Of a stretch of 64,000 nt of DNA, positions 1,432 to 24,433 are shown one piece after another. The notes below the pieces were generated by a model. That model did not search any database. It worked only from the letters and a program-made list of their open reading frames with translations, and was not told where the DNA came from. The stretch is taken from sequence record JX560968; one strand, 5' to 3'. The first letter of the stretch is position 1. Every line of letters starts with the position of its first letter. This DNA comes from Escherichia phage EC6. The translations under genes and the position numbers were made by a program.

Positions 1432-2526
1432 TTGTTAAATCTCTGTTAATACCACGTAAAAACCTTGTAAGAGTCTTTGGCATAGCCTTAAAAGCCCCTG
1501 TAAAGCCCTATAAAGAGCTATCCATACAGTTGAGGGGTAAATACTAGGAAGATGCTTAAAAGAGCCTATAAAGAGTTATAGAGAGCTTTTAAGAGGTATG
1601 TTTAAGGAATCACTAAGAAAGGAAAGGGAATGATAAGACCAGAGATAGTGACCATGTTAATAGCTTGTTAAAAAGATTAAGCACTTGTTAGGAACTTGTT
1701 AATTATCTTAACAAAATAACTCTTTAAAATTAACTTGTTAGCTCTTGTTAGCCATCTGTTAAGCATCTGTAAAGACTATTCAGCACTTGTTAAGAAACTG
1801 TTACAGCCTTGTTAGTTCTGTTAAGAATCTGTTAAGACCTCTGAAGAGATGTTAAGAAGATGTAGTAACTGTTAAGAGATTGTTAATGATATTTTAAAAT
1901 TCTGCAAAGGGGGTGTTAAGGAGCTGTTAAGGGCTACCAAGCAGATATACATCTTCTACAGATATTTTTCAGTTCCTTCAAAGACCCTAAAAAACGACTT
2001 GATAGTCCTATTTTATAAAAATTTTAAAATTCTGAATAATTACCTAGACAGTCTTTTAAAAATACAGGCATAAACAGGCTTATAAGATACCTTGTTAGTA
2101 CCGTGTTAGACCTTGTGAGATAAGGTCTGTAAAGATATTCCTGTTAAGTTTGTTAAAACAGTCTATATAGAGGCTTAGTAATACCTAGTGAACACCTATA
2201 GAGGGTAACATAGCTAACCTAGAGATTAAGAGGTGTATAGGAGCTTCTAAGAGGGTGTAGAGGTATGGTTAAGGTGATTGTATAGGTTGTTAAGAAGGCT
2301 TGTTAGAAGAGTGTTTAGAAGGGCTATACAGAGGGGCTATTAAGACCACTAGATAGATACTAAGATACTATATAGTACTATATAACTATATAGAGAGTAA
2401 GATTAAGGAGGTTGTTAAGAAGGATAGATATTTTATTCACATATGATGGTGACCCAGAGGTTGGGACAACCGATAAAATTTTATAAAAATTAAAAAGCCC
2501 CCAATTAAGGAGGCTCTTAAGATATT

Positions 2527-3120
2527 TTAAATCAGTGTTTCCAGAACTGTTTTTAGTGATGACTTGGTTGTCTGATAAAAATGAGTAAATCCATTGTTAT
2601 TATCGAATACCTGCATCATGATATCATCACCCTTGATTGGGTAAACTCGAATATCGTAGTGAAAACCATTAAAGACACAAGAACCACTACAGAATGCTCT
2701 AAAGTCATCCACTGAGATATACTCTTCATGGCCTGTGATTTTTATACAAACACCTTTACTCGGTCTCTTAGGGTTGATATCTTCCATCACAGACATACTC
2801 TGCCCACCAAGAGAGACCATAGTGACCACTTTACGGTTCTTCTGTCTAAAGTACATCTTAACTTTCTGTAAAGTGTCTTCATAGAACGGATAAGACCTTT
2901 CTACAAAGATTCCTTCAAGTGGCTCTTTACCATTTTCAACTTCTCGGTTATGCCGTACTGCAAAGATAATTTGTTGGAACCAGTCAAGATTTTCTTCGGA
3001 GAGTCCTTCCCGAATATCATTCCAGTCAAGGACTAGATAGTTACCTTCAACTTCTTTTAAGTTGTCTTCTTTCATAACTATCACACCATTATCGTAAAAC
3101 TTGGTAAGCTGGAACTGCAA
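2527..3120 (-). CDS. hypothetical protein (197 aa)
   Basis: Long ORF in the minus-strand gene block; no recognised motif. Confidence 0.5.
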   Translation of the reverse strand: MQFQLTKFYDNGVIVMKEDNLKEVEGNYLVLDWNDIREGLSEENLDWFQQIIFAVRHNREVENGKEPLEGIFVERSYPFYEDTLQKVKMYFRQKNRKVVTMVSLGGQSMSVMEDINPKRPSKGVCIKITGHEEYISVDDFRAFCSGSCVFNGFHYDIRVYPIKGDDIMMQVFDNNNGFTHFYQTTKSSLKTVLETLI

Positions 3121-6048: not shown

Positions 6049-6342
6049 TTATTCATCGTTAAACTCTCTGACGAAGAAATAGTTGACTTTATTATTACCT
6101 ACCATAAGGTCAAAGCAGGTATTCTCAAAAGGTTTGTTGTAGGCATCGTATGAAGTGTACGTATCAGCTACTTGTTTAGTATTGAGCTTTTTACTTGATG
6201 GGTTTAAGAGGCCACCATACAGTTTCTTGATAGCCTCTTCTACAACAGACCAGATAATTTCGTCAGTAATTTCTTCGTACAGGTCAAGTTCACGCTCTAG
6301 TGAGAAGTCACAAATAGGGAAGATAACCTGTACTTTGCTCAT
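6049..6342 (-). CDS. hypothetical protein (97 aa)
   Basis: ORF in minus block. Confidence 0.45.
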   Translation of the reverse strand: MSKVQVIFPICDFSLERELDLYEEITDEIIWSVVEEAIKKLYGGLLNPSSKKLNTKQVADTYTSYDAYNKPFENTCFDLMVGNNKVNYFFVREFNDE

Positions 6343-6737
6343 TAACGAATAACCTGTGAAACTTGAATTGCTTCAGTTACAGACAAATCACCAACTTTCT
6401 CTTCTTTGATGAAAGTAAAGGTGAGTTCAACAGGTTCTTGCTCTTCTTGCTCAACTGGAATACCGTTAAGCTCATCAAAGATTGATTGGGTAGTCCAGTC
6501 TTCTCCACCATCTGGATAGTGGATGGCATAAAGAGGAAACTCTAAATTATACCAAGCAAAAACAGGACAACCGTCTGCATCATCTCGGCATCTGTGGAGG
6601 TACGTATTTGTACCTTCAAAATGCAAATGAAGATTGCCATTCTTCTCAAATAGAAGAGCATCTCGCAGGTCTAGTTCCTTATTTTCGCTGTAACGACTGA
6701 CATCAACTTTAACGTGGATATGACTGTTATTATTCAT
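6342..6737 (-). CDS. hypothetical protein (131 aa)
   Basis: ORF in minus block. Confidence 0.45.
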   Translation of the reverse strand: MNNNSHIHVKVDVSRYSENKELDLRDALLFEKNGNLHLHFEGTNTYLHRCRDDADGCPVFAWYNLEFPLYAIHYPDGGEDWTTQSIFDELNGIPVEQEEQEPVELTFTFIKEEKVGDLSVTEAIQVSQVIR

Positions 6738-7145: not shown

Positions 7146-7170
7146 ATAAAAAAGGCTCCCGAAGGAGCCT
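7146..7170 (-). terminator. rho-independent terminator (minus strand)
   Basis: Hairpin GGCTCC-cgaa-GGAGCC; the plus-strand A-run just upstream gives a U-run after the hairpin on the minus transcript, directly downstream of the lysozyme gene. Confidence 0.5.
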
Positions 7171-7179
7171 ATGAAGATA

Positions 7180-7644
7180 TTACTTTGGATATACACTGTC
7201 AAGATAAATGTCAGCTTCCATTCTACGTCTGTTTTTCAAGCCGTTTGAAGTGACCTTCTTACCTTTGACTGTAATCTTGTTCCACCACTGCATAGCTTCT
7301 GCACAACCTACCTTATTACCAGCATTGTGGCGCTTGATAAATGTAGAATCCTGCATAGCTGTGATACCGATGTTGTATGTTTCACTTACAAGTGCATCGA
7401 ACTCATTCTGAGAAGTTGGAACCTTGATAGCTTTGTTCACTGCTGCAACAAACTTTTCAACATCTGCGAGAAGATACTGTTCAGCTTGTTCAGCCGTGAT
7501 TTTCATACCCATCTTAACAGGTTTTCCGTCAATACGGATTGTACCATACCCAATTGTTGGGATTCCGGCAGAGTCTTTGTAAGCCTCTAACTTCAGACCT
7601 TCAAAGAACTTAATAGCTTCTAAACCTTTTCTTGAGAGTTGCAT
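7180..7644 (-). CDS. lysozyme / endolysin, GH24 (T4 E-like) family
   Basis: N-terminal motif EGLKLEAYKDSAGIPTIGYG matches the catalytic Glu/Asp/Thr region of T4-type lysozymes; 154 aa. Confidence 0.7.
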   Translation of the reverse strand: MQLSRKGLEAIKFFEGLKLEAYKDSAGIPTIGYGTIRIDGKPVKMGMKITAEQAEQYLLADVEKFVAAVNKAIKVPTSQNEFDALVSETYNIGITAMQDSTFIKRHNAGNKVGCAEAMQWWNKITVKGKKVTSNGLKNRRRMEADIYLDSVYPK

Positions 7645-8276
7645 TATGCCCCTCCTGCTGGGTTAACTGTAACTGTTGCTGCATTAGATGTTACAGAGCC
7701 ACCTGCACCAGTTACTACGCAAGTGTAGCTTCCTGCATCAGCAGTAGTTGCACCTTCTTTGGTGTAAGTTGCAGTCGTTGCGTCTGGGATGTCTTCCTCA
7801 CCCTTCTTCCACTGATATCCAGTGGCGTTAGTTGCGATAACGCTTAAGGTGAGCGTGCCACCCTCATTGACCGTTTGGTTTGTTGGTTGTTGAGTAATTG
7901 CTGGTGGCTTAATAGCATCCTTCAGCTTAGCATTCAACATTGAGAAAGGTTTAACTCTTGCCAGCCATTCACAGTAAATTGTGTCAACATCTTTACCGTT
8001 GATGATTGCATACTGTAAATCCATGAAGAAATCAGCAGTCCTCATCTGTGCACCAACACTGTAAAGGAGCTCATCACTAAAAGGGACTTTGTAGTCTGGT
8101 TTGTAGTCAAACTTCTCAACCTCTGCAATATCAGCTTCAGGCCAATATGAGCTATAGGTGAGTGGTAAAATAGCTTCTTGATATGTTCTAAAATCATATC
8201 TCTTACCAGCCTTTACATTTGCAATGAAGCCCTTTACAAATTCTTTGAAGTCTGGATAAGTCTTTGCTTTAATCAT
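7644..8276 (-). CDS. hypothetical protein with C-terminal Ig-like domain (210 aa)
   Basis: C-terminal GGTLTLSV...YQWKK...DAGSYTCVV pattern typical of Ig/I-set-like domains; N-terminal 130 aa is paralogous to the next gene. Confidence 0.5.
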   Translation of the reverse strand: MIKAKTYPDFKEFVKGFIANVKAGKRYDFRTYQEAILPLTYSSYWPEADIAEVEKFDYKPDYKVPFSDELLYSVGAQMRTADFFMDLQYAIINGKDVDTIYCEWLARVKPFSMLNAKLKDAIKPPAITQQPTNQTVNEGGTLTLSVIATNATGYQWKKGEEDIPDATTATYTKEGATTADAGSYTCVVTGAGGSVTSNAATVTVNPAGGA

Positions 8277-8644
8277 TTCTTTTTAGCCTCTAAACGTGCG
8301 TTTAATCTGAAATAGCCTTTATGTTGTGGAGATACATCACCAACAACAATACCTTCAACTTTATAACCCTTACCAATTACATACTGGATATCCATAAGAA
8401 ACGTACCAAGCCCAACAATGTGGAACATTGGGTATAGTAACTTATCTGAATCTGGGAGTTTAATGTCTGGGTTATAGGTAGGTTGCTCGGCAGTTGGTGT
8501 AATATCCTCTTCAGGCCATCTACTCATTCTCCATGTTAAAGGTGATGAAATAACATCGTTAAGATTGTATTTTTCACCATTCTCCACGGAGCGGATATAG
8601 GATTGTAGGAAGCAATAAAAGTCTTTTGCACTCTTAGCCTTCAT
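8273..8644 (-). CDS. hypothetical protein, paralog of N-domain of the 7644-8276 product
   Basis: Shared blocks: RWPEEDI vs YWPEADI, DxxLLYxxxxxxxxxFxMDxQYxI. Confidence 0.5.
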   Translation of the reverse strand: MKAKSAKDFYCFLQSYIRSVENGEKYNLNDVISSPLTWRMSRWPEEDITPTAEQPTYNPDIKLPDSDKLLYPMFHIVGLGTFLMDIQYVIGKGYKVEGIVVGDVSPQHKGYFRLNARLEAKKK

Positions 8645-8691
8645 TAAATATCCTTATAAATAGATAAAGGGGCGTTAGCCCCTGTTTACAC

Positions 8692-15916: not shown

Positions 15917-15995
15917 GCTCCATTACTCCAATTGGCAGAGAGGCCAGACTTAAAATCTGTGTTATGTATCGGTTCGAATCCGATATGGAGTACCA
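15917..15995 (+). tRNA. tRNA with anticodon TAA (Leu-type anticodon) on a class-I-length scaffold
   Basis: Acceptor GCTCCAT/ATGGAGT, anticodon loop CTTAAAA, 6-nt variable loop, perfect T-arm ATCGG-TTCGAAT-CCGAT, CCA encoded. Confidence 0.45.
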
Positions 15996-16000
15996 AATTT

Positions 16001-16076
16001 AGCGGTATAGCATAACTGGCAATGCAGCAGTCTCTGAAGCTGTCTTATTAAGGTTCAAATCCTTATGCCGCTGCCA
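16001..16076 (+). tRNA. tRNA-Gln (anticodon CTG)
   Basis: Acceptor AGCGGTA/TGCCGCT, D-stem GCAT/ATGC, anticodon loop CTCTGAA, T-arm TAAGG-TTCAAAT-CCTTA, CCA encoded. Confidence 0.55.
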
Positions 16077-16107
16077 CTTCTAAGGATTCTTACGAGAGTC
16101 CTTAAAT

Positions 16108-16183
16108 GTGGCCTTATCATAAATGGTAATGACCCATGCTGTGAACATGGTCTATACGGGTTCAAATCCCGTAGGTCACCCCA
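16108..16183 (+). tRNA. tRNA-His (anticodon GTG)
   Basis: Acceptor GTGGCCT/AGGTCAC, anticodon stem CCATG/CATGG with loop CTGTGAA, T-arm ACGGG-TTCAAAT-CCCGT, CCA encoded. Confidence 0.6.
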
Positions 16184-16188
16184 ATTTA

Positions 16189-16265
16189 TAGTCCAAGTAG
16201 CTTATATGGTTAAAGCGCGTGTCTGAAAAACATGAGAAGAGGGTTCAAATCCCACTGGACTACCA
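16189..16265 (+). tRNA. tRNA-Phe (anticodon GAA); ends approximate
   Basis: D-stem GCTT/AAGC, anticodon stem CGTGT/ACATG with loop CTGAAAA, T-loop TTCAAAT; the acceptor register is ambiguous by 1-2 nt. Confidence 0.5.
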
Positions 16266-16281
16266 ATTTCAAAGGTGCTTA

Positions 16282-17016
16282 ATGAAAGAGATGACAGAAC
16301 AAGGTAAGGAGATTTTTAATCTCTTAAAAACTGGTAAAGGGTTTTCTAACCCCCTTATTACTGGTGCAGCAGTTCTCGGTGGAACCGTAGCTGCCTCTAC
16401 ATCACTTGTAAGCTCTATTAGCTCTGTATCAGACCCTACAGTAAAGGATAAGCTTGTTGCTGCTGGACTTACAACAGTTCTGCTTAACAGCTTTACCACG
16501 AGTCTGACAAGCACTACATCAACTACCAAAACACTGACAGATTACGGTCAAAAGTCCATTGATGAGTTTTCATCACGTATGCAGGTAGCAAAAGGTTATT
16601 CTAATGTTATGGGTGCAGCAGGTGAACAAGTTGGCTGTACACCGTTTAGTGGTATTATGGGTGTTGCTACAGAATATGGTCAAAAAGCTATTGACACAAT
16701 TAACAGTGCACTAGACGGTGTTAATGATGTATTAAGTGACTTACAAGACGCTATTGACAAAGGTCTTGATACTATTTCTGATTTAGCTAACCAAGCTGTT
16801 AGTAAGATTAATGAAGGTATCTCGAAGATTACAGCTTATGCAGATGAAGTTGTGCAGATGATTGAAGAAGAAGCTGCCCTTATTGCAGAGTACCTTAAAA
16901 CGAATATCAATGGGTTCTTAGCAGGTATCTTACCAGACTGGTTTGATGATGCTTGTAAAACTGGTGTAATTGACACTATTGCAACACCAGAAATGAAGAG
17001 CGCATTACAGAAATAA
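16282..17016 (+). CDS. hypothetical protein (244 aa)
   Basis: ORF in the tRNA cluster; the ATG at 16282 with an AAAGG RBS is preferred over the upstream in-frame start, which overlaps tRNA-Phe. Ser/Thr-rich N-terminal region. Confidence 0.45.
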   Translation: MKEMTEQGKEIFNLLKTGKGFSNPLITGAAVLGGTVAASTSLVSSISSVSDPTVKDKLVAAGLTTVLLNSFTTSLTSTTSTTKTLTDYGQKSIDEFSSRMQVAKGYSNVMGAAGEQVGCTPFSGIMGVATEYGQKAIDTINSALDGVNDVLSDLQDAIDKGLDTISDLANQAVSKINEGISKITAYADEVVQMIEEEAALIAEYLKTNINGFLAGILPDWFDDACKTGVIDTIATPEMKSALQK

Positions 17017-17037
17017 TGGAAGATTAACCCTAAAAGG

Positions 17038-17130
17038 TAAGGGAGCAGTTTGCTAAACTGCCAGTAGCTGAGAAATCGGTGTACCAGTTCAAGTCTGGTA
17101 TCTTCCTCCAATTTGAATCCGTGACAGAAA
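17038..17130 (+). tRNA. tRNA-Ser (anticodon GCT), long variable arm
   Basis: Perfect acceptor GGAAGAT/ATCTTCC, 3-bp D-stem CCC/GGG, anticodon stem GCAGT/ACTGC with loop TTGCTAA, ~21-nt variable arm, T-arm ACCAG-TTCAAGT-CTGGT, CCA encoded. Confidence 0.65.
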
Positions 17131-17134
17131 TGGC

Positions 17135-17210
17135 TATGTACCTGTCTGCAAAACAGGTTTATAAGGGTTCGAGTCCCTTCGGATTCTCCAAGTTATTTTA
17201 CTCTCTCTCA
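17135..17210 (+). tRNA. tRNA-Cys (anticodon GCA)
   Basis: Acceptor GAATCCG/CGGATTC, anticodon stem CCTGT/ACAGG with loop CTGCAAA, T-arm AAGGG-TTCGAGT-CCCTT, CCA encoded. Confidence 0.6.
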
Positions 17211-22918: not shown

Positions 22919-23296
22919 ATGGCATATCAAGGTTTTACTAAGTTAGGTAAAAGAGAACCTCTGAATGATATCATTCTTTGGGAACAGATTACCCCAACAG
23001 GCCACTCTCGTAAAGAGTACACACCGGTTGCTTCAACAGAATACCGTGTAGGTGAAGTTCTGAAAGCAGATGGTACTAAGGTTACAGCAGGGCAAGAAGC
23101 TCAGGCTGACTCTGTATGTATCGTTAACTTTTATGCAGACTCACAACTGTCTTATCACGGTCAGTTGAAAGTTGTAGGTATCTACCGCGATGCAGAACTG
23201 AAAGACATGCTGACTCTTGAGTCTGGTGTTGATGCTGCCGCAGTCAAGACAGCTCTGGCTGCTAAAGGTATTGATTTCGTACCAACTGGCCTGTAA
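22919..23296 (+). CDS. head decoration protein (lambda gpD-like position and size)
   Basis: 125-aa ORF between protease and major capsid gene, matching the lambda C-D-E order. Confidence 0.45.
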   Translation: MAYQGFTKLGKREPLNDIILWEQITPTGHSRKEYTPVASTEYRVGEVLKADGTKVTAGQEAQADSVCIVNFYADSQLSYHGQLKVVGIYRDAELKDMLTLESGVDAAAVKTALAAKGIDFVPTGL

Positions 23297-23329: not shown

Positions 23330-24433
23330 ATGTTGACTAATTCTGAAAAAAGCAGATTTTTCCTTGCTGACCTGACTGGTGAAGTCCAGTCTATCCCAAA
23401 TACTTATGGGTATATTTCCAACTTAGGTCTGTTCCGTTCAGCACCAATCACCCAAACTACTTTCCTTATGGACTTGACTGATTGGGATGTTAGCTTGCTT
23501 GATGCGGTAGACCGTGATAGCCGTAAAGCAGAGACTAGCGCACCTGAGCGTGTTCGTCAAATCAGCTTCCCAATGATGTACTTCAAAGAAGTTGAAAGCA
23601 TCACTCCTGATGAAATTCAGGGTGTACGTCAGCCAGGCACTGCAAACGAGCTTACTACTGAAGCTGTAGTACGTGCTAAGAAGCTGATGAAGATTCGTAC
23701 CAAGTTCGATATTACTCGTGAGTTCCTGTTTATGCAAGCTCTGAAGGGTAAAGTTGTTGATGCTCGTGGTACTCTGTACGCTGACCTGTACAAGCAGTTC
23801 GATGTTGAGAAGAAGACTGTTTACTTCGACCTTGACAACCCTAATGCTGATATCGACGCTTCTATTGAAGAACTGCGTATGCACATGGAAGATGAAGCTA
23901 AGACTGGCACTGTAATCAACGGTGAAGAAATTCACGTAGTTGTTGACCGTGTGTTCTTCAGCAAGCTGACTAAACATCCTAAGATTCGTGACGCTTATCT
24001 TGCACAGCAGACTCCGCTGGCTTGGCAACAGATTACTGGTTCTCTGAGAACTGGTGGTACTGACGGCGTTCAGGCTCACATGAACACTTTCTACTACGGT
24101 GGTGTTAAGTTTGTCCAGTACAACGGTAAGTTCAAGGACAAGCGTGGTAAGGTTCACACTCTGGTGAGTATTGATAGTGTAGCAGCAACTGTTGGTGTAG
24201 GTCACGCTTTCCCTAACGTTTCTATGCTGGGTGAAGCAAACAACATCTTCGAAGTGGCTTATGGTCCATGTCCTAAGATGGGTTATGCAAATACACTTGG
24301 TCAGGAACTGTATGTATTCGAATACGAAAAAGACCGTGACGAAGGTATTGACTTTGAAGCTCACTCTTACATGCTGCCATACTGTACTCGTCCTCAGTTG
24401 CTGGTAGATGTTCGTGCTGACGCTAAAGGCTAA
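23330..24433 (+). CDS. major capsid protein (lambda gpE-like)
   Basis: 367 aa; QALKGKVVDARGTLY block resembles lambda E AVLKGKYTMTGEAF; synteny after protease and decoration genes. Confidence 0.65.
   Translation: MLTNSEKSRFFLADLTGEVQSIPNTYGYISNLGLFRSAPITQTTFLMDLTDWDVSLLDAVDRDSRKAETSAPERVRQISFPMMYFKEVESITPDEIQGVRQPGTANELTTEAVVRAKKLMKIRTKFDITREFLFMQALKGKVVDARGTLYADLYKQFDVEKKTVYFDLDNPNADIDASIEELRMHMEDEAKTGTVINGEEIHVVVDRVFFSKLTKHPKIRDAYLAQQTPLAWQQITGSLRTGGTDGVQAHMNTFYYGGVKFVQYNGKFKDKRGKVHTLVSIDSVAATVGVGHAFPNVSMLGEANNIFEVAYGPCPKMGYANTLGQELYVFEYEKDRDEGIDFEAHSYMLPYCTRPQLLVDVRADAKG

What the first reader, a model, noticed from the sequence alone, without database searches (positions are those of the whole stretch)
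7644..8644. Tandem paralogs in the early block, one with a C-terminal Ig-like domain
The two adjacent genes share an N-terminal domain (RWPEEDI / YWPEADI and a DxxLLY...F.MD.QY.I block); only the larger has an Ig/I-set-like C-terminus (GGTLTLSV...YQWKK...DAGSYTCVV). Ig-like domains in phages are usually on virion surface proteins, but this pair sits next to the lysozyme, so a host-envelope or cell-surface interaction is possible.
Basis: inference. Interest (0 to 1): 0.4.

Follow-up and report, generated by a model that had tools for sequence, protein, structure and literature searches.

The report
Known capsid decoration gene plus paralog
The larger gene is the already solved Hoc-like protein that plugs capsid hexamers of Felix O1-type phages and displays an Ig domain, and the smaller gene is an unstudied copy of its capsid anchor without the Ig domain, so the finding is real but mostly already explained.

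Summary
The window is a Felixounavirus genome. ORF A (7644-8276, minus strand, 210 aa) and ORF B (8273-8644, minus strand, 123 aa) are paralogs: 36% identity over 121 aa, E=3e-18. A ends in one I-set Ig domain, shown by Pfam and by a confident AlphaFold2 model.

A is not a new kind of protein. It is the ortholog of Bas63 Hex-Dec (PDB 9ncf_S) and Sf14 gp20 (9c2d_S), a Hoc-like capsid decoration protein. In those phages the N-terminal 118-122 aa plug the centres of the 60 facet-edge hexamers of the T=9 capsid. The contact residues R79 and R107 of A, and D221 of the capsid protein, are all present here.

The single Ig unit is a chimera of Bas63 repeats 1 and 4. Alleles with 1-4 repeats exist in the genus.

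The "early block / envelope" reading is not supported. In Felix O1 both genes peak late, and A's ortholog is found in virions.

B has not been studied. It has the anchor fold but lacks both contact arginines. It is under purifying selection, was not found in two virion proteomes, and is a pseudogene in about 20 related phages. Its role is inferred only.

The parts
7644..8276 (-). ORF A, 210 aa. Hex-Dec / gp20-type Hoc-like capsid decoration protein, the allele with one Ig domain.
   Evidence: ORF. PDB sequence hits 9ncf_S (E=8e-226) and 9c2d_S (E=1e-156). PHROG 3995. Cryo-EM and mass-spectrometry literature.
7911..8276 (-). Capsid-binding domain (CapBD) of A, aa 1-122. It carries R79 and R107, the residues that contact the capsid protein in Sf14 gp20.
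   Evidence: Four differences from the Bas63 Hex-Dec CapBD in 123 aa. R79 and R107 are invariant in 15 A-type sequences. Their role is described for Sf14 in PMC11821841. dN/dS about 0.03.
7647..7910 (-). Single I-set Ig-like domain of A (aa 123-210), plus the short PAGGA tail whose codons hold the AGGAGG ribosome-binding site of the endolysin gene.
   Evidence: Pfam Ig_3, I-set and Ig_2 above their cut-offs. AlphaFold2 pLDDT 93-96. Foldseek matches to Ig domains. Homology to the Ig domain of T5 pb10: 8zvi_a E=5e-11, 5lxk_A E=1e-10. Sequence.
7800..7815 (-). Inferred crossover interval inside the Ig unit (codons for QWKKG). Upstream of it the DNA follows Bas63 repeat 1; downstream it follows repeat 4.
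   Evidence: Mismatch counts per 30 nt: against Ig1 2,3,2,5,10,12,10,10,19; against Ig4 10,12,13,3,1,2,1,4,3.
8273..8644 (-). ORF B, 123 aa. A paralog of the CapBD without an Ig domain (PHROG 4463; orthologs are Felix O1 ORF37, Sf14 gp21, Bas63 bas63_0125). Function not established.
   Evidence: AlphaFold2 model with pLDDT 74. The only Foldseek PDB hits are 9ncf_S (TM 0.65) and 9c2d_S (TM 0.67-0.69). dN/dS about 0.11. R79 is replaced by G, and R107 by Q, H or R.
7180..7644 (-). GH24 endolysin, third gene of the cassette. Its ATG overlaps the stop codon of A (TAATG).
   Evidence: Pfam Phage_lysozyme E=5e-41. Sequence. The same order is kept in distant relatives.
8668..8683 (-). Terminator-like G+C-rich hairpin in the 47-nt spacer just upstream of B.
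   Evidence: It is annotated as a rho-independent terminator in AYO145A and listed for Felix O1. It is retained in phages that lost B.
7153..7170 (-). Terminator-like hairpin just downstream of the endolysin gene, closing the B-A-endolysin cassette.
23330..24433 (+). Major capsid protein, the binding partner of A. D221 is present.
   Evidence: One difference in 366 aa from Bas63 MCP 9ncf_A, E=2e-248. Residue 221 is D within KHPKIRDAY.
22919..23296 (+). Beta-tulip trimeric decoration protein (Dec), the second capsid decoration of this phage group.
   Evidence: 9ncf_J E=5e-74 and 9c2d_J E=1e-73.

Best explanation
The window is a Felixounavirus genome. ORF A is its Hoc-like hexamer decoration protein, called Hex-Dec in Bas63 and gp20 in Sf14. 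By orthology, one monomer plugs the centre of each of the 60 pentamer-proximal (facet-edge) hexamers of the T=9 capsid through its N-terminal domain of about 120 aa. R79 and R107 of that domain form salt bridges with D221 of the capsid protein. A single I-set Ig domain projects outward from the capsid. Its likely job is to help virions stick to surfaces or to tune aggregation, as proposed for T4 Hoc; this is inferred, not shown. The number of Ig repeats (1-4 in the genus) changes by in-frame homologous recombination between repeats, and the allele here is a repeat-1/repeat-4 fusion. ORF B is an old tandem duplicate of the anchor domain alone. It is translationally coupled to A and expressed late with it. 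It keeps the fold but has replaced both contact arginines and 35 other positions that are fixed in A. B is most likely not a stable virion component but a dispensable accessory factor. My preferred guess, at roughly 0.35, is that it acts transiently at hexamer centres or on Hex-Dec during head assembly and decoration. B-A-endolysin form one compact cassette bracketed by terminator-like hairpins. The lysozyme adjacency is genome architecture, not a functional clue.
For: Identity of A:
- Searches show it is a Felixounavirus, with 248 related records.
- One search gives 9ncf_S E=8e-226 and 9c2d_S E=1e-156.
- One search shows the CapBD differs from Bas63 at 4 of 123 residues.
- One search shows R79 and R107 are invariant.
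- One search shows the capsid protein differs from the Bas63 protein at 1 of 366 residues, with D221 present.
- One search shows the beta-tulip Dec is present.

Literature on orthologs:
- The Bas63 and Sf14 cryo-EM papers describe the binding site, the monomeric state and one copy per asymmetric unit.
- Felix O1 gp36 was detected in virions with 44% coverage.

Ig domain.

Repeat recombination:
- One search shows the chimera pattern.
- Searches show alleles with 1, 2, 3 and 4 repeats (8, 16, 17 and 6 of 47 sampled genomes).

B:
- Paralogy is shown.
- The fold is shown.
- dN/dS of 0.11 comes.
- Searches show the lost arginines and 37 diagnostic positions, with the segment equivalent to the R79 region being the most conserved part of B.
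- B is absent from the Felix O1 virion proteome although smaller proteins were detected.
- It is not among the VpaE1 additions to that list.
- Neither cryo-EM study saw density on the remaining hexamers.
- Late RT-PCR class for ORFs 36 and 37.
- B is a pseudogene in mio and Z31, and about 20 of 251 records lack it.

Cassette:
- Overlaps ATGA and TAATG.
- Flanking hairpins.
- The same gene order in a relative whose B is only 47% identical.
Against: Nothing was measured on this phage itself. Capsid binding, copy number and timing are all transferred from orthologs.

The Felix O1 RT-PCR is coarse: maximal signal at four time points. It places the endolysin in the 25-min class although the endolysin is coupled to A.

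The virion proteomes used coverage thresholds, so a low-copy B could have been missed. The Sf14 table lists only proteins already called structural.

Icosahedral averaging would weaken the density of a monomer sitting on a true 3-fold axis.

The adhesive role of the Ig domain is untested in any Ounavirinae.

The AlphaFold2 model of B is only of moderate confidence (pLDDT 74). The model of A's own CapBD failed (pLDDT 30-50).

The role proposed for B has no direct support.
Confidence: 0.85

Rival explanations
1. B is a second, minor capsid decoration protein. As a bare plug it would occupy the 20 hexamers on the true 3-fold axes that Hex-Dec does not bind, or a fraction of the edge hexamers.
For: B has the complete CapBD fold. 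It is late and co-translated with A. Its most conserved segment corresponds to the capsid-contact segment of A but with different residues. That would fit a differently shaped hexamer centre, and the Sf14 paper reports that D221 is shifted in the 3-fold hexamers. Three-fold averaging could blur a monomer at that position.
Against: B was not detected in the Felix O1 virion proteome, although proteins of 9.7-13.7 kDa and the 12-copy candidate portal gp53 were. It was not among the proteins newly detected in VpaE1. Both cryo-EM studies report no density on those hexamers, and the Sf14 study included asymmetric maps. Both salt-bridge arginines are lost.
Confidence: 0.12
2. B has taken on a function unrelated to the capsid, for example binding a host or phage protein in the infected cell. 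Only the fold survives from the duplication.
For: 37 positions are fixed differently from A. B is absent from virion proteomes. It is dispensable in a natural clade that keeps A. The cassette partner is the endolysin.
Against: The tight start/stop overlap with A and the fixed position directly upstream of A hold even at 47% identity. B shares the late RT-PCR class with A. It has no signal peptide, no membrane segment, and no match to any other family or fold.
Confidence: 0.25
3. The pair are tail proteins, as most GenBank records and PHROG 3995 label them.
For: The PHROG 3995 label 'tail protein', hits to 'major tail protein' PHROGs, the Felix O1 annotation 'major tail protein', and many record annotations.
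Against: The hits to tail PHROGs cover essentially the Ig domain alone (residues 96-208 at most). Cryo-EM places the orthologs on capsid hexamers, and the Bas63 authors state explicitly that the tail annotation is wrong.
Confidence: 0.01
4. One reading: an early-expressed pair acting on the host envelope or cell surface alongside the lysozyme.
For: Adjacency to and coupling with the endolysin gene. Ig domains are adhesion modules.
Against: Late RT-PCR class in Felix O1. The A orthologs are capsid-bound. Neither protein has an export signal (sequences).
Confidence: 0.03

Closest known systems
Bas63 Hex-Dec (bas63_0124, PDB 9ncf chain S) and Sf14 gp20 (PDB 9c2d/9c3a chain S), the Ounavirinae Hoc-like hexamer decoration protein
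   Same: A is a direct ortholog. The CapBD differs from Bas63 at 4 of 123 residues. The contact arginines are the same, the partner capsid protein has D221, the Ig repeats are of the same I-set type, and the gene sits in the same position upstream of the endolysin.
   Different: A has one Ig repeat instead of four (Bas63) or three (Sf14). That single repeat is a fusion of the first and last repeats. B shares only the anchor fold, at 36% identity. It lacks the Ig domain and both contact arginines, and neither paper discusses it.
[quoted passage not shown]
   Same: It works the same way: a non-essential monomer at hexamer centres that displays a string of Ig-like domains outward. The number of Ig domains varies among relatives.
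   Different: The domain order is reversed, with the CapBD at the C-terminus in Hoc. No sequence match was found for the CapBD and no Foldseek match. The Bas63 authors describe the CapBD as larger, topologically distinct and pseudo-C2-symmetric. A is an analogue of Hoc, not a family member.
T5 pb10 decoration protein (PDB 8zvi, 5lxk)
   Same: [quoted passage not shown] The Ig domains are homologous (E=5e-11 and 1e-10, query residues 131-207).
   Different: The match is confined to the Ig domain. The N-terminal anchors show no sequence similarity, and the B model does not find pb10 by Foldseek.
CapBD proteins of more distant Ounavirinae-like phages, such as the Erwinia phage phiEa104 BIG2-domain protein and the metagenomic proteins P0099-P0104
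   Same: They have the same anchor domain, in one case directly upstream of a GH24 lysozyme gene.
   Different: The displayed module is swapped: Big_2 (P0099, P0100, P0103), a different I-set unit (P0101), or a low-complexity Lys/Ser tail (P0104). These loci carry one CapBD gene, not a tandem pair.

Membership tests
Ounavirinae Hex-Dec / gp20 decoration protein (for ORF A) | N-terminal capsid-binding domain homologous to the solved chains | tested here: met
   phmmer against PDB: 9ncf_S E=8e-226 and 9c2d_S E=1e-156, aligned from residue 1. Four differences from Bas63 in 123 aa.
Ounavirinae Hex-Dec / gp20 decoration protein (for ORF A) | Capsid-contact arginines R79 and R107, and the partner D221 in the major capsid protein | tested here: met
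   R79 and R107 are invariant in 15 A-type sequences including the window. The window's capsid protein has D221 and differs from the Bas63 protein at 1 of 366 residues. The roles of these residues come from PMC11821841.
Ounavirinae Hex-Dec / gp20 decoration protein (for ORF A) | One or more C-terminal I-set Ig-like repeats | tested here: met
   Pfam Ig_3, I-set and Ig_2 above their cut-offs. AlphaFold2 pLDDT 93-96. Foldseek matches to Ig domains.
Ounavirinae Hex-Dec / gp20 decoration protein (for ORF A) | Physically bound as a monomer at the centres of facet-edge hexamers of the virion | not testable with these tools
   Shown for orthologs by cryo-EM and by virion mass spectrometry. Not measured for this phage.
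Ounavirinae Hex-Dec / gp20 decoration protein (for ORF B) | CapBD fold | tested here: met
   BLASTP E=3e-18 against A. phmmer against 9ncf_S E=1e-12. The AlphaFold2 model matches only 9ncf_S and 9c2d_S (TM 0.65-0.69, probability 1.00).
Ounavirinae Hex-Dec / gp20 decoration protein (for ORF B) | Contact arginines R79 and R107 | tested here: not met
   The position of R79 is Gly in all 49 B-type sequences. The position of R107 is Gln, His or Arg. The motif KPF is replaced by KGY.
Ounavirinae Hex-Dec / gp20 decoration protein (for ORF B) | Displayed Ig-like domain | tested here: not met
   B ends at the end of the CapBD (123 aa). It has no Pfam hit.
Ounavirinae Hex-Dec / gp20 decoration protein (for ORF B) | Presence in purified virions | not testable with these tools
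   The literature is negative. Felix O1 gp37 is not among the 17 virion proteins. The VpaE1 additions are only gp54, gp58 and gp68.
T4 Hoc family | Ig domains at the N-terminus, Hoc-type capsid-binding domain at the C-terminus | tested here: not met
   The order is reversed here. No Pfam or PDB sequence match covers residues 1-122 except the Ounavirinae chains. The topology is reported as distinct.
T5 pb10 family | pb10-type N-terminal capsid-binding domain | tested here: not met
   The match to 8zvi_a covers only query residues 131-207 against chain residues 80-160, which is the Ig domain. pb10 is absent from the Foldseek hits of the CapBD model of B.
Phage tail proteins (PHROG 3995 label; Felix O1 'major tail protein') | Homology to a tail tube, sheath or other tail component outside the Ig domain | tested here: not met
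   Hits to tail-labelled PHROGs 158, 853, 3575 and 9239 lie within residues 96-208, essentially the Ig domain. The label was corrected by the Bas63 study.

The most novel reading that the evidence does not exclude
B is a dedicated Ig-less derivative of the capsid anchor that regulates decoration. It could act as a transient placeholder or competitor at hexamer centres of procapsids or of the 3-fold hexamers, or as a partner of Hex-Dec that controls when and where the Ig-bearing protein binds. That would be a decoration-control factor of a kind not described for Hoc-type systems. The evidence does not exclude it. B has the fold, is late and co-translated with A, and is under purifying selection. 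Its most conserved surface corresponds to the capsid-contact segment but with different chemistry. It is absent from mature virions.
Probability: 0.2. Interest if true: 0.5.

Novelty: already known. Interest (0 to 1): 0.22.

Why it matters
The Ig-bearing gene is still labelled "tail protein" in most Felix O1-type genomes, which misleads annotation. Correctly read, it is a ready-made capsid display anchor, with natural alleles carrying 1-4 Ig units and relatives carrying Big_2 or other modules. That matters for phage display and for understanding how therapeutic Felix O1-type phages adhere to surfaces. The small open point is the conserved anchor-only paralog. If it tunes capsid decoration, it would add a regulatory layer to a system thought to be simple self-assembly.

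Tried and rejected
- Pfam gave no family for B or for residues 1-122 of A.
- AlphaFold2 on A's own CapBD, with a shallow and near-identical alignment, failed (pLDDT 30-50). The fold claim therefore rests on the model of B and on sequence identity to the solved chains.
- The sigma-70 promoter scan found no more sites than shuffled sequence (8 found, 9.0 expected). No promoter is claimed for the cassette.
- Net charge and pI of B compared with A's CapBD do not discriminate. Both families span pI of about 5 to 9.
- A scan of viral contigs for the distant B-type protein P0097 found nothing. Its context came from the look-up of encoding contigs instead.
- Literature searches for a Felixounavirus transcriptome, and for any mention of the paralog, returned nothing useful.
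- The list of VpaE1 virion proteins is in a figure that is not held. Only the text statement about differences from Felix O1 could be used.
- A tail-protein reading and an early, envelope-directed reading were considered and rejected (see the rival explanations).
Full report
**What is there.** The region holds two overlapping minus-strand ORFs: A (7644..8276, 210 aa) and B (8273..8644, 123 aa). A GH24 endolysin gene follows directly (7180..7644).

The paralogy is solid:
- BLASTP gives 36% identity over 121 aa, E=3e-18.
- Each protein hits the other's PHROG family.
- 32 positions are fixed identically in 49 B-type and 43 A-type sequences.

The Ig domain is also solid:
- Pfam Ig_3, I-set and Ig_2 all pass their curated cut-offs over residues 124-204.
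- That part of the AlphaFold2 model has pLDDT 93-96.
- Foldseek matches it to C2/I-set domains, for example 3bfo_A with TM 0.90 and rmsd 1.5 A.

**Where it comes from.** The 2.6 kb around the finding matches 248 phage records at 60-97% identity. All are Felix O1-type myophages of Escherichia, Salmonella, Shigella and Citrobacter (subfamily Ounavirinae). The best match is Escherichia phage SP22 at 97%. The window also carries the tRNA array (25 genes) that Felix O1-type genomes hold at this position (tRNA genes at the matching place in EF202P1; 22 tRNAs in Felix O1), the major capsid protein, and the beta-tulip decoration protein.

**What A is.**
- A search of PDB sequences hits two solved chains at E=8e-226 and E=1e-156. 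They are 9ncf chain S, from the icosahedral capsid of Bas63 (JohannRWettstein), and 9c2d/9c3a chain S, from the Sf14 capsid.
- The Bas63 paper (PMC12609058) names the protein Hex-Dec. [quoted passage not shown] A string of flexible Ig-like domains follows.
- The Sf14 paper (PMC11821841) describes the homolog gp20 in the same way. There is one monomer per asymmetric unit. The CapBD lies within the N-terminal 118 residues. R79 and R107 form salt bridges to D221 of three of the six capsid subunits. The protein was detected in particles by mass spectrometry.
- In Felix O1 the ortholog gp36 was found in virions with 44% coverage, and was called a tail protein at the time (PMC3185647).
- In the window, A's CapBD differs from Bas63's at 4 of 123 residues. 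R79 and R107 are invariant across A-type sequences. The window's capsid protein differs from the Bas63 protein at 1 of 366 residues and has D221.
- Membership in this family is therefore met on every feature that can be tested in silico.
- The "tail protein" label of PHROG 3995 and of most GenBank records comes from Ig-domain similarity to tail proteins. The hits lie within residues 96-208. The Bas63 authors explicitly corrected the label.

**Number of Ig repeats.**
- Orthologs are 210, 294, 377 or 460 aa long, corresponding to 1-4 repeats.
- Among 47 genomes sampled evenly down the ranking, 8 have one repeat, 16 have two, 17 have three and 6 have four.
- At the DNA level the window's single unit is a chimera. 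Its first ~100 nt follow Bas63 repeat 1 (7 mismatches in 90 nt, against 35 for repeat 4). The rest follows repeat 4 (about 14 mismatches, against about 66 for repeat 1).
- The switch falls inside the conserved QWKKG codons, at window 7800-7815.
- This is the signature of an in-frame homologous crossover between repeats. It gives a simple mechanism for the copy-number variation that both papers noted but did not explain.

**Timing and genome context.**
Felix O1 RT-PCR puts ORFs 36 and 37, the orthologs of A and B, in the class that peaks at 60 min. That class also holds the morphogenesis genes 51, 53, 63, 64, 72, 73, 76 and 77. The neighbours 33-35 and 38 peak at 25 min. These data are coarse.
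- B, A and the endolysin gene are tightly coupled. B's stop overlaps A's start (ATGA). A's stop overlaps the endolysin start (TAATG). The endolysin's AGGAGG ribosome-binding site lies inside the codons of A's C-terminal PAGGA tail.
- Terminator-like hairpins flank the three genes at 8683-8668 and 7170-7153. They are annotated as terminators in AYO145A and Felix O1.
- The arrangement is old. An 87-kb metagenomic contig carries a B-type gene (47% identity to B), an A-type gene with two Ig repeats, and the lysozyme gene, in the same overlapping order.
- In a still more distant relative, a single CapBD gene sits directly upstream of the lysozyme gene, with the same DUF2828 and DUF5681 neighbours.
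- Adjacency to the lysozyme is therefore conserved architecture, not a clue to an envelope function.

**How far the anchor domain reaches.** A profile of the CapBD was searched against 1.84 billion representative proteins and found only 13 hits. Besides the A and B types, these include CapBD fused to Big_2 domains (P0099, P0100, P0103; compare the Erwinia phage phiEa104 BIG2 protein in BFVD). They also include CapBD fused to a different I-set unit (P0101) and to a low-complexity Lys/Ser tail (P0104). The anchor is thus a modular display platform restricted to Ounavirinae-like phages. Those distant loci have a single CapBD gene. The tandem duplication is therefore specific to the Felixounavirus, Mooglevirus and Suspvirus lineage plus one metagenomic relative.

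**What B is.** Neither structural paper mentions it. No occurrence of Sf14 gp21, Bas63 0125 or the word "paralog" was found in the texts or in the held supplements.

What is shown:
1. B is a full-length copy of the CapBD fold. Its AlphaFold2 model (pLDDT 74, pTM 0.74) matches only 9ncf_S and 9c2d_S in the PDB (TM 0.65-0.69, probability 1.00). Nothing else scores below E=1.
2. It is a working gene. The median dN/dS is 0.11, against 0.03 for A's CapBD and 0.06 for the endolysin.
3. It has diverged in a directed way. 37 positions are fixed differently from A. R79 is Gly in all B sequences, R107 is Gln, His or Arg, and KPF has become KGY. Yet the segment equivalent to the R79 region (PMFHIVGLGTFLMDIQYVIG) is the most conserved part of B.
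4. It is dispensable. About 20 of 251 records have only A. In mio and Z31 the B locus is a pseudogene remnant, with the start codon lost and about 225 nt deleted, while the upstream hairpin and A are retained.

What comes from the literature:
- Felix O1 gp37 is not among the 17 virion proteins, although proteins of 9.7-13.7 kDa are.
- The VpaE1 proteome added only gp54, gp58 and gp68 to that list, not gp40.
- No density was seen on the hexamers that Hex-Dec leaves empty.

My inference is that B is not a stable virion component. I regard it as a late accessory factor derived from the anchor. A transient action at hexamer centres or on Hex-Dec is the most economical guess, at about 0.35. A minor decoration role on the 3-fold hexamers is at about 0.12, and a function unrelated to capsids at about 0.25. 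The remainder is undetermined. None of these has been tested.

**Comparison with known systems.**
- A works like T4 Hoc: a non-essential monomer at hexamer centres that displays Ig domains. It is not a Hoc family member. The domain order is reversed and the anchors show no similarity in sequence or by Foldseek. The Bas63 authors describe the topology as distinct.
- The one-Ig allele has the same architecture as T5 pb10, and its Ig domain is homologous to pb10's (8zvi_a E=5e-11). The anchors are unrelated.
- The function of the Ig part, whether adhesion to mucus or cells or control of aggregation, is proposed by analogy in both papers. It is untested in this group.

**Verdict.** The finding is real, but its main component is already known and structurally solved. 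The window adds a single-Ig allele that is already common in databases. Two modest additions come from this work. First, the single Ig unit carries the signature of recombination between the first and last repeats. Second, a conserved but dispensable anchor-only paralog has apparently not been discussed, and it lacks the capsid-contact arginines. Interest is low to moderate.

Noticed in passing
window 8273-8644 versus 7911-8276; L002 (Bas63): B in the window is identical at the DNA level to Bas63's B (dN=dS=0). The adjacent CapBD of A differs from Bas63 with dS about 0.35. This suggests a mosaic recombination boundary at or near the B/A junction.
   Followed up: partly
window 7644-7665: The AGGAGG ribosome-binding site of the endolysin gene lies inside the codons of A's C-terminal tail (NPAGGA), and the stop and start overlap as TAATG. 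The tail sequence of the decoration protein is therefore constrained by translation of the lysis gene.
   Followed up: no
window 10354-11769 (+) and 11934-17190 (+): A 471-aa DUF2828 + DUF7788 protein sits just upstream of an array of 25 tRNA genes. Related records annotate it as an RNA-binding or vWFA protein. The pairing is conserved in distant relatives (L015).
   Followed up: no
L005 (Shigella phage Z31, MN655999) 2498-3070: In Z31 the A gene is split into a 134-aa CapBD-only ORF and a 55-aa remnant, and B is also a pseudogene. This isolate appears to have lost the Ig display altogether.
   Followed up: partly
phage records KEP3, vB_EcoM_Shy, SME50, ZX4221, MET-P1-301, AN17P8, PK6: Spans consistent with four Ig repeats occur in several phages besides Bas63. 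The Bas63 paper, working from 18 ICTV species, reported four repeats only in Bas63.
   Followed up: partly
KM657822 (VpaE1, L007) versus LR597663 (VpaE1_ev78): VpaE1 has a two-repeat allele (885 nt). The record named VpaE1_ev78 spans a length consistent with three repeats. The repeat number may have changed, or the gene may have been exchanged, in a derived or evolved stock.
   Followed up: no
window 6342-6737 (-): The 131-aa ORF is annotated as D-alanyl-D-alanine carboxypeptidase in some related records (mio_119, HMD-P10), but it has no Pfam match here. The label looks unsupported.
   Followed up: partly
and organism tallies: One record named as a Staphylococcus phage (SA1, cited in the VpaE1 annotation) falls among these enterobacterial Felix O1-type genomes. 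The host attribution is probably wrong.
   Followed up: no
window 8645-8691 (-): The spacer upstream of B holds a terminator-like hairpin but no room for a recognisable sigma-70 promoter. It is unclear how the late-peaking B and A are transcribed past it (read-through, processing, or an unknown late promoter type).
   Followed up: no
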